64,000 bases of DNA. Source: Strigamia acuminata. Taxonomy: Eukaryota. The position numbers and the translations under genes are program-made. Positions 8,495 through 13,262 of this stretch are shown here, one piece after another (positions within the stretch are counted from its first letter, which is position 1; each line of letters begins with the position of its first letter). The notes under the pieces were generated by a model. The model was not told the DNA's origin. It saw only the letters and a list, made by a program, of their open reading frames with translations, and searched no databases. The stretch spans positions 16,182,001-16,246,000 of the forward strand of contig OX442314.1 of assembly GCA_949358305.1 (NCBI GenBank). The letters run 5' to 3'.

Positions 8495-11400
8495 CTATTT
8501 TAACGGAACACGAGACTTAGACTTCATTTCCGCTACAAACCACTGCGTAAAATCCACGAATGCTTCAAACACAGCAGGCATACACCAGCCCAACATTAAT
8601 CCCATAATAGACCCAATTTCACATAACAACTGAACGTGTGAATAAGAAGAAATTTCAACAATTTGCTCCACAGCATTATGGATGAACATAATTGAGTAAA
8701 TTGTAAACATTGCATCATCAATTGGTTCAAAGTACAAATTCGTGTAAAGTATTGTTTGGTTACAAATTCGAACGCAATTGCATGATTCCGTGGCAAAAAA
8801 ACTTTGGTGATAAAACGTATGCGCTAGTTTGGCAGAAGTCGTCGTTTCGCACATAGGTCTTTCAATTTTCATGTATGGTAATCTAATGCATTGAAAACAT
8901 CGTTATTTCTTTGTGCAAAATAAGCAAAACATTTAACATATTAACCATGGTGAAGGCCATTTGGATTCAAAATTGCACTGTACTTTCCACCATAACACCA
9001 CGACACATTTATACACAAGTTTTTTTCTTCACATTACCTGCATTCTAATAGCTGCAATTTCTCTTTTAAGCATTCACTTAGGCAATAACGGGTATCCTCG
9101 ACGCAAGGGTTCTTTTTCGTGTTGTAACGTTTAACCTACAATAATTGACAGCATTAATTATGCATAACGCCATGTTAAGTAAAGTGCAATCGCACATCAA
9201 CAATTTTATTATTATTACTTACGTTTTATCTCCAAGACCTGATTTAACCTGCTTTAATTAACCTCAATTAATTAGGTTTGATCTGGTTTGGGCTGGTTAG
9301 GTTTAGTTAGGTCAGGAGGTCTTGGAAATAATGCATAAAATTCCCGGCTAGTATTTCTACTAATACTTCCAAACTTTGTGAATGATATTAATTATTATAG
9401 TAAACTATTATAAATTAAAATTAATAAGCAAAAGCCCGGGTAAAAACATGCTCGCTCGGATTGTTACGCAAGGTGTGGGTCCGCTCGCTCTAACGGCAGC
9501 TGCGAAGACTAACAGTAAGTGCATTTGTACGGAGTATTCGTTAATATGAAAACAAAAAAAGTAGTAGAGGGGGTAATTTTGTTCAAAATTATAGAATAAA
9601 AAGTACCGTAATTAATCATGCTGTACTCATGTTGTATCTACTCCTTGGGAGTGTATAATAAAAATCAAATCAAATCAAATCAGGTTGTTGGTTGCTGACA
9701 TCAAGGATGTCTTTGCTGACATCGTGAAAAAAATTTCCAAAAATGTATTATACTTTACCTCTTTGTGCGTAAACATGACAGCTGCAATGCCTTTAGTTGT
9801 TAAATGAATGTATTGCGAGAGATCTATATAGTCATCGCCGTGAGATAAGTACGCTGTGGCAGAAAGATCTTCAGTATTGGAGCAAGGTCCGCCTGTTGCT
9901 CCCATCATCGTGATCATTACATGAATGGTGCTTGTCCCGGTGAATTGATGAGTGCCTGAAAATAAAACTCGAATAAATACATGAGATTTTCAGTGGAAAA
10001 AAACAAAACATACCTATCTCACAAGGGGAGAGCACCAATAAGCTATCACAGATTGTTATAATATTAAACAAGAAGGATTGTTATATCATGCTGAATGAGA
10101 CCCTAAAATAATTTTATTCCATAGACAGCCAACAATGCAAACAATGAGCTCAAAGTTGGCACTATTTTGTCTGTGTATACATCAAATCTGAGCAATCAGG
10201 CCTAGTGTATGAATACTGTAAACAACAGTTGCTAGGTAAAAAATAGTCCCAAGATCCAAGTTCAATTTTATCATTTGAGATTCAATGATGTCATTTCCTC
10301 TTTTGATATCACATGACATATGACATCAGAACTTTGTTCAACAACATGACTGTCTTCATGAAGACAATAATAGTTTGTAGTGGTGGTCCAGTGGTTCAGG
10401 CAATGGACTAGGAATCTTTCCACACAGGTTCAAATCCTGGTGTGTGTGAAAATTTTTTACTTTATTTTTTTTTAGCAGTAATTTTAATGTTTGTAATTTT
10501 ATGTTTGTTTTTAGAAAACTTTAATTAATTAATTTTAATTTTTTAACAAACATAAAATTACAAACATTAAAATTACTGCTAAAAAAAATTAAAAAATAAA
10601 AGTAAAAAATTTTCACACACACCAGGATTTGAACCTGTGTGGAAAGATTCCTAGTCCATTGCCTGAACCACTGGACCACCACTACAAACTATTATTGTCT
10701 TCATGAAGACAGTCATGTTGTTGAACAAAGTTCTGATGTCATATGTCAAGTGATATCAAAAGAGGAAATGACATCATTGAATCTCAAATGATAAAATTGA
10801 ACTTGGATCTTGGGACTATTTTTTACCTAGCAACTGTTGTTTACAGTATTCATACACTAGGCCTGATTGCTCAGATTTGATGTATACACAGACAAAATAG
10901 TGCCAACTTTGAGCTCATTGTTTGCATTGTTGGCTGTCTATGGAATAAAATTATTTTAGGGTCTCATTCAGCATGATATAACAATCCTTCTTGTTTAATA
11001 TTATAACAATCTGTGATAGCTTATTGGTGCTCTCCCCTTGTCAGACAAATAGCATTGTCCTCTGGTGGTGTTGATATAGCGAAAACTGTTATGACTCACA
11101 GGAACAGGCGTAATGCCCATATGCTCCTGCATTATACCAAAACATACTTGGATGGTGAAAGAGTCAAATTAATGGATTTGGAATTAGCAAATTACCTTAG
11201 CATTCGAGTTAATCAGTTTCCAAGCGATAATATTGGACGGTTTTAATGATTTCGACCAAATTTTATCAGCGCTTTGATTCAAGGATAACAATTCCAAAAA
11301 ATCCTCATCACAGAACGGTTTATTTGATCTGGATCGATCGTGGTCTCGAGATAAGAGCAGTTGACTCTTGTAAAAATAATAGAGAATCGGGAAACTACAG

Positions 11401-13262
11401 AAAGTGAAGTTAGGGAACGTCACTCTGGTTTTCTCTATCACCTCAATGATGACTCGAGTTGGTTCCGACCAATAAAACAACACTCGATTAGCAATTTGAC
11501 AAAAGCAAAGCAGTGAAGAGAAAAGGAAAACAAAATAGTACATATAGTACATTTTCCCCCTCTTGGCAGCACTTGTATGTATTGTTTTTAGTTCATTGCT
11601 TAAAACTACTTCGCAATGCCGAACCAGTGGTTTTTTGTTTAGTCTAAGCCGCCACAGTTGGTATTTTGCAAACATGTAGTAAATTACACACTGAATAAGT
11701 TTGACTATTGAGAGAATAGACAGACCGAAATAAAGGCCGAGGTTGCCACCAATCTCGCACAACAGCGATACTATTCCGTACGCATATTTCTCAGAAACAA
11801 CGGTGATGTAGTTGGCCCGAAAACTAAAATAGAAGCTGCTTTCGTTCTGTTTCATCGCCGTATTTAGCAAACCAAAATCGTAAACTGTTTTCTTACAATT
11901 TCGAACGCATTTGCAGTTTTTTACTGGATCAATTTTGAAATATAAATCAGTCGATTTTATGTACGCGTCCTCAATAATGCTAGTATTTTTAGAAGTTTTA
12001 CAGAATGGTAAGTTTAATTCTTCAGGCATGTAAGGAAATCTGTAATTAATTCTATTATCATTTTTTAAAAATACTTATTATAATTTAGTCTTACCTGCAC
12101 GAAAAATTCTGTTTCATGTTCATGGCCAAAACGCATTTAGATTTGCATTTTTCGAATTCATCGGAATCAACGCAAGGAGAATGTGGTCTATTGAGAAATT
12201 CATACTGCAATTGATTGGATCAATATAAAAATTAAAAATTAAACTATTACTGCCAAATGAGTGCCATCATTGCCAATAGTACCTGAACATAGGTTAAATA
12301 GACGTACATGGTTTGCAGAGTGGAAAAGCTGAACAGACTTCTCAAGTCTAACGTCTTTTGATAAGGTTCGTGCGCACTACCCTACAGAATTTTTGTTTAA
12401 TTGATTAAATGTTAAAGAAACAAACTCAAATTTGGTCCCTACCGTTATCGATGAAAACTTGCAGACATTGCGAGGTTTTTTAAGCTTCAGTATCATGAGG
12501 GCAGTTGCCGAATTCGCAATTGATTTGTCTAATAAAAACAAGTAATTTTAAATTAAAACCTTAAAGTGTTCTTACATATTTTAAGTGTAGATACTCTGAT
12601 AATAGCTCTTGCAAAGCCCCATTGGCGTATAGGTGTCCGTCGGAGAATCTAGTTGTATAATATCACGCTTCTAGAATAAAATGAAATAAAAGTAATGAAA
12701 TGAAAAAAAATAGTTTTGCGTTAGCTCCCCATCGACTGCTTCAAATAAAACTTACCAATTTCAGAGCAAATTGCAACTCCAAAGATGTCATATTAGTCCA
12801 GTTCCAAATTTCGTCCGCTCTCTTGTTACTTACAGTTTTTAAGAGGTAAAATAGCTGATTCAGGCATTGCATTGAAGAAGTTATGGGGTATTCTTCCTTT
12901 ACTTTTGCCAAGCCATCGGTGTCTTGAGTGCAGAGAGTCAACGATGGAAAAGTGAAGTTGTGATTAAACTGAACATCAACAACCACTGGGTAACTTAAGT
13001 AAAACTGCACTCTGTCAAATATTTGGTAACAGCAAGCCGCGAAACACGCTAGAAGAATTACGAGAAATAGTGCGCGTAACCAAAATGAGGTTTTCTTGCT
13101 GCTTATTTTGCTCACTCCTGGTAGAGCCCAATGGGAATTTTCATTTACAAGTAAAATGAAATGTACAACTCGTTTGATAAACATCAAATGCTGTCGTCTT
13201 TGATTCACCAACATTTTGCAGCTGAATGATTGTGGCAATTGACAACGGGTTGTTAAAAACAT
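8495..13262 (-). CDS. Tandem double-domain DEG/ENaC (pickpocket/ASIC-like) channel, about 10 exons; second domain interrupted by a transposon in this sequence
   Basis: Domain 1: TM1 + YLSYPVVVDV + FPSLTLC, TPMGLC, PCVD..C..C..CRFPYM, TM2 CEIGGNLGLYFGLSILS. The same exon (12039-11196) continues into domain 2: TM1 + FYWSEPTRV + FPNFTFC, TTRGQCY, PCVED..C..C..CRLPYM, TM2 CEIGSIMGLMLGWC. Stop at 8495-8497. Confidence 0.88.
10377..10458 (+). pseudogene. tRNA-like (SINE-head-like) Pol III cassette in the left arm of the foldback element
   Basis: A-box TGGTCCAGTGG 10384-10394, B-box GGTTCAAATCC 10427-10437 within a CAGG/CCTG T-stem, T6 run at 10453-10458. The acceptor stem does not pair. Confidence 0.65.
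10604..10685 (-). pseudogene. Mirror copy of the tRNA-like cassette in the right arm
   Basis: Reverse complement of 10377-10458. Confidence 0.65.

What the first reader, a model, noticed from the sequence alone, without database searches (positions are those of the whole stretch)
8495..13262. Natural concatemer: two DEG/ENaC subunits fused in one polypeptide
Seen: one uninterrupted exon (12039-11196) encodes TM2 of one subunit (GGNLGLYFGLSILS), a linker of about 50 aa, then TM1 and the FPNFTFC motif of a second subunit, so the fusion cannot be a gene-model merge. The halves share four intron positions and phases (phase 0 after the finger region, phase 1 five codons after the GxC cysteine, phase 0 before the PC motif, phase 2 at CR), pointing to tandem duplication then fusion. 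Known: DEG/ENaC channels are trimers of 2-TM subunits with a pre-TM1 HG motif and a TM2 GxS filter. Here domain 1 has PG and GLS; domain 2 has no HG and has GWC. Inference: a 4-TM protein of about 800 aa that fixes a 2+1 stoichiometry with a separate monomeric partner and forms an asymmetric pore.
Basis: partly seen in the sequence, partly recalled or inferred. Interest (0 to 1): 0.88.

Follow-up and report, generated by a model that had tools for sequence, protein, structure and literature searches.

The report
Two sodium-channel subunits in one chain
This gene, likely from a centipede, joins two ENaC-type ion-channel subunits in one reading frame, as about twenty unstudied database relatives also do, so it would likely supply two of a channel's three parts and leave one slot for a separate partner; the copy in this window is broken by a transposon that two other samples lack.

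Summary
The fusion is real. One stop-free exon (12039-11196, minus strand) encodes the end of one DEG/ENaC subunit, a 44-residue linker and the start of a second; each part passes Pfam ASC alone. Contigs from two other samples, in two studies, lack it and give an open 831-codon model; half 2 shows purifying selection (9 synonymous, 4 replacement differences). The gene is not a one-off: 27 of 150 listed relatives cross the same junction, 22 of them uncharacterised Strigamia maritima proteins. In trees, first halves group together and second halves group together, so the fusion happened once, long ago, and the fused gene then multiplied. The closest solved channels are centipede BRTNaC1 and PDPNaC1. 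Separate three-repeat chains occur in shrimps and Strigamia. The 2+1 assembly is inferred (one complex prediction, weak support); no RNA or current was seen. The HG/GxS argument for pore asymmetry is weak in this lineage, but a family-wide G-to-S/N change in the second pore helix supports asymmetry. I found no paper describing natural DEG/ENaC concatemers.

The parts
12756..13262 (-). Exon 1: cytosolic N-terminus, PG at the HG position (aa 47-48), TM1 of repeat 1 (about 13094-13008), start of ectodomain. The start codon is inferred; an AG acceptor just upstream allows a 5' exon
   Evidence: Pfam ASC 50.2 bits, profile 7-95; aligns to BRTNaC1 HG region
12595..12670 (-). Exon 2 (GxC cysteine; phase-1 end). 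Its donor is weak; a rival donor at 12575 would include a stop but leave a 47-nt intron
   Evidence: same alignment column as the half-2 intron
12443..12528 (-). Exon 3 (followed by the one intron that half 2 lacks)
   Evidence: inferred from frame and splice ends, no RNA
12283..12381 (-). Exon 4
   Evidence: collinear with S. maritima P0001
12095..12204 (-). Exon 5 (thumb PC motif to CR, phase 2)
   Evidence: profile hit E 3.9e-07
11196..12039 (-). Bridge exon 6: thumb and TM2 of repeat 1, linker, TM1 and finger of repeat 2
   Evidence: covered by contigs of X2 and X3 with no stop or gap
11679..11756 (-). TM2 (pore helix) of repeat 1, aa 388-413, GG at 2'-3', GLS at 10'-12', Lys at 18'
11547..11678 (-). 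Cytosolic linker, aa 414-457, 10 Lys/Arg and 2 Asp/Glu; a helix in the model of relative P0013
11475..11546 (-). TM1 of repeat 2, aa 458-481, no HG before it
11041..11126 (-). Exon 7, 5' part (up to the insertion)
10022..11040 (.). 1,019-bp non-coding foldback (MITE-like) transposon inside exon 7, 455-nt arms, flanked by a TGA duplication; absent from contigs of X2 and X3
10014..10021 (-). Second TGA copy and the last five bases of exon 7, then the phase-1 donor at 10013
9759..9955 (-). Exon 8 (X3 carries an in-frame 9-base insertion here)
9038..9135 (-). Exon 9 (thumb PC motif to CR, phase 2)
   Evidence: profile hit E 0.003
8495..8882 (-). Exon 10: thumb, TM2 of repeat 2 (about 8620-8546; GS at 2'-3', GWC at 10'-12', Pro at 14', Glu at 18'), short tail and stop
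   Evidence: Pfam ASC 20.4 bits, under cut-off; own profile E 2.5e-20; five synonymous differences and no replacement in X3

Best explanation
The gene joins two complete DEG/ENaC subunits head to tail in one reading frame, a fusion shared with a family of centipede relatives, and its product would likely fill two of the three positions of one cation channel, with a separate single subunit likely filling the third. Shown: two full ASC repeats in order, a one-exon junction, shared introns, an intact allele in two other samples, selection on half 2, and position-specific clades. Inferred: a single mRNA and a four-helix membrane protein whose basic 44-residue linker runs on the cytosolic face from TM2 to the next TM1; neighbouring positions in the trimer; a fixed, asymmetric pore in which repeat 2 brings Ser/Asn at 3'; a sensory role like BRTNaC1 (heat) or PDPNaC1 (protons). 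The allele in this window carries a recent transposon in exon 7 and would likely give a truncated product.
For: Two repeats: aa 43-419 (244 bits) and 460-811 (150 bits) on a profile built from 15 single-subunit hits; 12 ectodomain cysteines in each. 27 of 150 listed hits cross the junction in one stretch; 22 are S. maritima records. The distance from TM2 to the next post-TM1 motif is 104-132 aa in 19 of 24 two-repeat proteins scored; the pattern found no match in 5. P0001 is collinear over aa 129-807 at 34%, E 3.6e-138, and shares GxCxP in the second pore helix. Trees: first repeats 91/77 and 94/90, second repeats 99/96 and 98/94, both together 98/90 and 93/87; the window's two halves as one clade is rejected, p-AU 0.0012. 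X2 and X3 skip 10019-11040 exactly. Half 2: 9 synonymous and 4 replacement differences, pN/pS 0.12, p 2e-4. AF2 model of P0013: pLDDT 68.7, pTM 0.64, four long helices; half 2 matches BRTNaC1 (Z 19.2, rmsd 4.0, 319 aligned) and half 1 PDPNaC1 (Z 18.6, rmsd 4.0, 311 aligned). P0013 plus the ectodomain of single subunit P0015: weak support, score 0.55 against best control 0.01, runs agree in at least 58% of contacts, partner pLDDT at least 69; the mark was reached by 51 of 78 solved and 2 of 108 mismatched pairs, but at 0.60 or under by only 5 of those 78 and all 4 passing mismatches of 180, and like trimers are solved, so it may show likeness only. Engineered ASIC concatemers form functional trimers (PMC10329638, abstract and section headings).
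Against: The assembled allele is broken. The intron-2 donor scores low and has a rival that gives a stop. Half 1 has only 2 coding differences (1 synonymous, 1 replacement), so selection on it is untested. The fourth membrane segment misses the hydropathy threshold and has Trp and Pro in the pore helix. The S. maritima relatives are automatic gene models, many partial or chimeric, and their exon structure could not be seen. Support for the first-repeat clade is just under the tool's bar. No partner gene lies in the window, and the species of P0015 was not looked up.
Confidence: 0.57

Rival explanations
1. The fused protein is made but assembles with copies of itself: the third position is filled by one half of a second chain, or each chain gives only one repeat, or two chains make a four-repeat pore.
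For: No single-subunit gene lies in the window; both closest solved relatives are described or deposited as three-chain homomers (PMC12714832); repeat 1 keeps a canonical pore helix. A four-subunit state was proposed for ASIC1a (PMC4529235, search listing only).
Against: Single-subunit relatives sit next to the family in the tree; second repeats have diverged as a class (Ser/Asn at 3' in 8 of 9, against Gly in 9 of 9 first repeats), which fits fixed unequal positions. Self-assembly was not modelled.
Confidence: 0.2
2. The two-repeat protein does not conduct well and works as a regulator or sink that binds single subunits and changes or silences their channels.
For: Repeat 2 has no HG, GWC for GxS and Pro at 14'; repeat 1 has Lys at 18', where ASIC1a needs Glu for sodium selectivity (PMC5449180 passages).
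Against: PDPNaC1 conducts without HG and its GAS mutants keep selectivity (PMC12714832 section 10); BRTNaC1 has Cys at 12'; Gly at 10' is kept in all 18 pore helices of the nine two-repeat proteins listed.
Confidence: 0.11
3. The frame is continuous but the halves act as separate subunits, through an internal start before TM1 of repeat 2, alternative RNA ends or cleavage of the basic linker.
For: Met codons lie just before TM1 of repeat 2; the linker is Lys/Arg-rich.
Against: Repeat 1 has no stop of its own; no GT site in the bridge exon scores over 3.5 and no AATAAA/ATTAAA lies in the linker; linker length is conserved across the family.
Confidence: 0.08
4. The locus is a decayed gene or a chance in-frame neighbour pair, and the database relatives are gene-model merges.
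Against: Empty-site alleles in two studies, in-frame indel, excess of synonymous differences; the junction is one exon here; P0022 crosses it on a 1,154-bp contig; position-specific clades are not expected from random merges.
Confidence: 0.04

Closest known systems
[quoted passage not shown]
   Same: Best sequence hit among solved structures for the bridge exon (E 1.4e-13) and exon 1 (E 1.2e-4); best fold match; compact ectodomain; Cys at 12' as in repeat 2.
   Different: One 431-aa two-helix subunit with HG; here two subunits in one frame, PG in repeat 1 and no HG in repeat 2.
PDPNaC1, proton-gated channel of centipede antennae (PDB 9JF7; PMC12714832)
   Same: Second-best family hit (E 2.7e-10; Z 18.6); lacks a canonical HG.
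   Different: 421-aa single subunit, homotrimer; ligand and function of the present gene untested.
Uncharacterised two-repeat ASC proteins of Strigamia maritima (UniProt T1J963 = P0001, T1JD34, T1ITL7, T1IPM9, T1JBK6 and others)
   Same: Same order TM2-linker-TM1, similar linker length, same position-specific clades.
   Different: Automatic models, many partial; named only 'uncharacterized'; 34% identity to the closest.
Engineered ASIC concatemers (PMC10329638)
   Same: Subunits joined C- to N-terminus on the cytosolic side to fix stoichiometry.
   Different: Man-made, three subunits with full tails plus a 19-residue linker; here natural, two diverged repeats (23-24% identical) and a 44-residue joint.
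Multi-repeat channels of other families: two-pore K2P and TPC channels, four-repeat Nav/Cav (recalled, no call)
   Same: Internal duplication fixes unequal subunits around one pore.
   Different: Those have two- or four-fold pores that whole chains complete; two repeats cannot complete a three-fold pore.

Membership tests
DEG/ENaC (Pfam ASC PF00858) | Match to the ASC profile | tested here: met
   Exon 1 50.2 bits; bridge exon 62.9 bits in two stretches; its parts 46.0 and 26.7 bits; last exon 20.4 bits, under the 23.6 cut-off alone
DEG/ENaC (Pfam ASC PF00858) | Each subunit: two membrane helices around a cysteine-rich ectodomain with the ASIC fold | tested here: met
   12 Cys per ectodomain; both halves of relative P0013 match solved channels, Z 19.2 and 18.6. 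The window's own whole protein was not folded; three of four helices pass hydropathy
DEG/ENaC (Pfam ASC PF00858) | One subunit per polypeptide (two membrane helices in all) | tested here: not met
   Two complete repeats in one frame; this is the variant
DEG/ENaC (Pfam ASC PF00858) | Pre-TM1 HG motif | tested here: not met
   PG in repeat 1, none in repeat 2; also missing in the accepted member PDPNaC1, so not decisive in this lineage
DEG/ENaC (Pfam ASC PF00858) | TM2 GxS belt | tested here: inconclusive
   GLS in repeat 1, GWC in repeat 2; BRTNaC1 has GIC
DEG/ENaC (Pfam ASC PF00858) | Trimeric assembly | tested here: inconclusive
   Weak support, 0.55 against 0.01, on relatives and possibly from likeness to solved trimers
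DEG/ENaC (Pfam ASC PF00858) | Voltage-independent cation current, often amiloride-sensitive | not testable with these tools
   needs electrophysiology
Centipede two-repeat ASC family (defined here) | First and second repeats fall in their own clades | tested here: met
   alternatives rejected at p-AU 0.0012, 0.0044, 0.0013
MITE / foldback DNA transposon (the insertion) | Terminal inverted repeats, target duplication, no coding frame, many copies, empty sites | tested here: met
   455-nt arms, TGA duplication; longest open run 55 codons; other flanks and very high summed depth; empty site in X2 and X3. Superfamily not tested

The most novel reading that the evidence does not exclude
Arthropods have repeatedly turned the three-subunit DEG/ENaC channel into single-chain forms: an old two-repeat family of twenty or more genes in soil centipedes, which would act as a pre-set two-thirds channel completed by an interchangeable third subunit (a combinatorial sensory receptor family), and separate three-repeat chains in shrimps and in Strigamia that would form a whole asymmetric pore from one gene, as four-repeat Nav/Cav channels do in their family.
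Probability: 0.4. Interest if true: 0.87.

Novelty: new variant of a known kind. Interest (0 to 1): 0.74.

Why it matters
DEG/ENaC channels are taught as trimers of two-helix subunits, and labs build artificial concatemers to fix their stoichiometry. Natural two- and three-repeat chains would show how evolution solves the linker, how each pore position specialises once symmetry is broken, and give ready single-chain scaffolds for asymmetric pore studies. In centipedes, where related channels sense heat and protons, a large fused family points to an unstudied sensory receptor set. It also warns that multi-ASC gene models should not be split by default.

Tried and rejected
No whole genome is held, so paralogues in this species were not counted. 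No RNA holder listed; this says nothing on expression. Word-based protein searches found nothing with the bridge exon (0 of 1,345 candidates) or exon 1 (0 of 190), and only the query with alignment A1 (1 of 7,988). Single-sequence folding of the bridge exon failed (pLDDT 40). Metagenome scan: 0 of 37 loci hold two repeats in one frame. Rfam: 0 matches in 8000-14500. A third repeat near the gene was rejected: no other ASC segment in the window. In-frame splicing round the element is possible only through weak donors, a four-base exon or loss of exons 7-8, so rescue was judged unlikely, not excluded. P0117 was dropped from the careful trees as a probable chimeric model after it pulled P0006's second repeat among the first repeats in the FastTree run; the careful trees used 61 and 33 of 106 repeats. 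ESM Atlas gave only general ASC clusters. Earlier-findings look-ups by place and by sequence were blank.
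Full report
Observation. On the minus strand, the frame 12074-11184 is open for 296 codons and contains an exon with AG and GT ends at 12039 and 11196. Pfam ASC matches it in two stretches; cut at the linker, the first part matches the profile end (318-453 of 455, 46.0 bits) and the second the profile start (22-108, 26.7 bits), both over the 23.6-bit cut-off. 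The order end-then-start inside one exon is what a head-to-tail fusion gives and cannot come from a gene predictor joining two genes. A 281-codon open run is rare in this window (0.01% of 20,000 random frames), although a 44-codon run is not (10.3%).

Gene model. Ten exons give 831 codons with one terminal stop. A profile built from 15 single-subunit hits finds two complete repeats, aa 43-419 and 460-811, and no other ASC segment in the window, so this is a two-repeat gene. The halves are 23-24% identical, each ectodomain has 12 cysteines, and the four introns of half 2 match introns of half 1 in phase, three in the same column and one two columns off; half 1 has a fifth. Weak points: the intron-2 donor scores low and a stronger donor 19 bases on would include a stop, though it would leave a 47-nt intron, shorter than any other in the gene (55 nt or more); the start codon is a guess; only three segments pass a hydropathy threshold, the last pore helix resting on homology.

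A 1,019-bp element with 455-nt inverted arms (99%) and a TGA duplication sits inside exon 7. It has no frame over 55 codons. Read as assembled, the protein stops after residue 615. Of four runs laid, contigs of X2 (study P1) and X3 (study P2) jump from 10018 to 11041, the exact empty site; X2's 29-kb contig has no other difference, and X3's 4,092-bp contig covers the whole gene; X1 and X6 gave no long piece. Pieces of the element stack to depths hundreds of times that of the gene contigs and show other flanks, as for a high-copy MITE-like family (depth is no copy number). No listed contig bridged the filled junction, so the filled allele is seen only in the window; the target duplication argues for a true insertion rather than an assembly slip. 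In-frame rescue by splicing needs weak sites. The window's allele is therefore probably a recent null, while the gene is intact in other animals.

Selection. Of 35 X3 differences, 33 were listed; one more, intronic, appeared and one was not seen. Fifteen are coding: half 2 has 9 synonymous and 4 replacement changes (pN/pS 0.12, binomial p 2e-4, no correction for transition bias), half 1 has 1 and 1, and a 9-base insertion in exon 8 keeps the frame. The linker has no listed difference. Selection is thus shown for half 2, read in the frame that continues from half 1, and untested for half 1.

Relatives. A full HMMER search with the bridge exon gave 259 proteins at E 0.001 or better, 150 listed. 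In 27 of the 150 a single stretch crosses the junction. Twenty-five were looked up: 22 uncharacterised Strigamia maritima records, one unnamed protein on a 1,154-bp ENA contig, one unnamed Logan protein and one midge protein; two were not. The spacing from TM2 to the next post-TM1 motif is 104-132 aa in 19 of 24 two-repeat proteins, with no pattern match in 5. The closest, P0001, is collinear over aa 129-807 (34%, E 3.6e-138). The best solved relatives are the centipede channels BRTNaC1 and PDPNaC1. The source is therefore likely a centipede (inference from these hits alone).

History. With repeats cut apart, first repeats form one clade (91/77; 94/90 under a mixture model) and second repeats another (99/96; 98/94), and the two are sisters (98/90; 93/87). 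Holding the window's halves together is rejected (p-AU 0.0012), as is holding them with P0001's second repeat (0.0044) or P0013's halves with P0031's first repeat (0.0013); these groups were named after a first tree had been seen. One duplication and fusion, then multiplication of the fused gene, explains this; random merges do not. Branches are long and the first-repeat clade is just under the tool's support bar. Two further groups are separate events: young S. maritima tandem chains with up to three repeats (P0002, P0003, P0004, P0009) and three-repeat chains of 1,244-1,289 aa (Halocaridina rubra P0026, P0039; unnamed P0049, P0091 on 4.4-4.7-kb contigs), whose repeats also sort by position.

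Structure and mechanism. AF2 on P0013 with a 20-row alignment gave pLDDT 68.7 and pTM 0.64, with four long helices and a linker helix; half 2 aligns to BRTNaC1 (Z 19.2, rmsd 4.0, 319 residues) and half 1 to PDPNaC1 (Z 18.6, rmsd 4.0, 311). Since the family is trimeric (established knowledge; PDPNaC1 is a homotrimer, PMC12714832, passages), two repeats leave one position open. P0013 (70-758) with the ectodomain of single subunit P0015 scored 0.55 against a best control of 0.01, rated weak: at 0.60 or under, 5 of 78 solved complexes and all 4 passing mismatches of 180 reached the mark, runs agreed in at least 58% of contacts, partner pLDDT at least 69, like trimers are solved, and P0015's species is unknown. 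It shows a subunit-shaped slot at most. Engineered ASIC concatemers make functional trimers (PMC10329638: abstract, headings, linker passages), so such a joint is workable.

Pore asymmetry. PG at the HG position also occurs in single-subunit relatives (P0014, P0015, P0052); PDPNaC1 lacks a canonical HG and mutating its GAS does not change selectivity, while Gly378 does (PMC12714832 section 10); BRTNaC1 has GIC. Better evidence is family-wide: counting so that the belt Gly is 10' (PMC5449180 passages), position 3' is Gly in 9 of 9 first repeats and Ser or Asn in 8 of 9 second repeats, and GxCxP at 10'-14' is shared with P0001. Position 18', which sets sodium selectivity in ASIC1a, is Lys in repeat 1 and Glu in repeat 2 here and varies across the family, so a non-selective cation pore is likely.

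Literature. Nine full-text searches listed no paper on natural multi-repeat DEG/ENaC proteins; I saw listings and abstract starts for most, and passages of PMC9974506, PMC7067487, PMC5203786, PMC8438182, PMC9822975, none of which mentions fusion. Subscription papers are missing; the panarthropod survey cited in PMC8438182 as covering S. maritima was not seen, and no supplements were read, where such models might be remarked on. The comparison with K2P, TPC and Nav/Cav is recalled.

Verdict. A real two-subunit DEG/ENaC fusion, part of an old and apparently undescribed centipede family, with a broken allele in this assembly. That the fused frame is a genuine gene I put near 0.9; that it works as 2+1 with a separate subunit near 0.57. 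New variant of a known kind; interest 0.74.

Noticed in passing
P0026, P0039 (Halocaridina rubra), P0049 with P0152/P0153, P0091 (unnamed, contigs of 4.4-4.7 kb): Proteins of 1,244-1,289 aa with three complete ASC repeats whose repeats sort by position in the tree: candidates for a whole DEG/ENaC channel in one chain. P0078 (Palaemon carinicauda) is a partial relative.
   Followed up: partly
P0002, P0003, P0004, P0009 (Strigamia maritima): A separate, young group of tandem repeats reaching three repeats per model: a second fusion event in centipedes, or merged tandem genes.
   Followed up: partly
P0097 (Polypedilum vanderplanki): 1,460-aa pickpocket-like model with three ASC repeats and short joints; a merge of tandem genes is not excluded.
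   Followed up: no
window 10022-11040: High-copy foldback element with 455-nt arms and a 3-bp TGA duplication, polymorphic between samples; likely still mobile.
   Followed up: yes
window 11380-13263 against 8400-11379: X3 differs from the window at only 2 listed sites over the first 1.9 kb of the gene but at 31 over the rest: recombination, a mosaic contig or a sweep on half 1; unexplained.
   Followed up: no
window 7334-7714 (+): Convergent neighbour: 126-codon open frame with a short Thr/Ala/Lys repeat and a Lys/Asp-rich part, no Pfam family over cut-off.
   Followed up: no
window 772-3894 (+), 16128-17144 (-), 28174-30093 (+), 36192-45532 (-), 46372-48472 (-), 60848-61372 (-): Ordinary genes: PARP domain, beta-helix protein like FBXO11, DNA polymerase epsilon subunit 2, C1-domain protein, DEAD-box helicase and a rhodopsin-family receptor (Pfam for four of them; the names beyond Pfam are recalled).
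   Followed up: no
window 26408-27379: Tandem array of a unit of about 48 bases with long open frames on both strands.
   Followed up: no
window 13264-13332: Tetranucleotide microsatellite directly upstream of the first ATG, ending in a possible splice acceptor.
   Followed up: no
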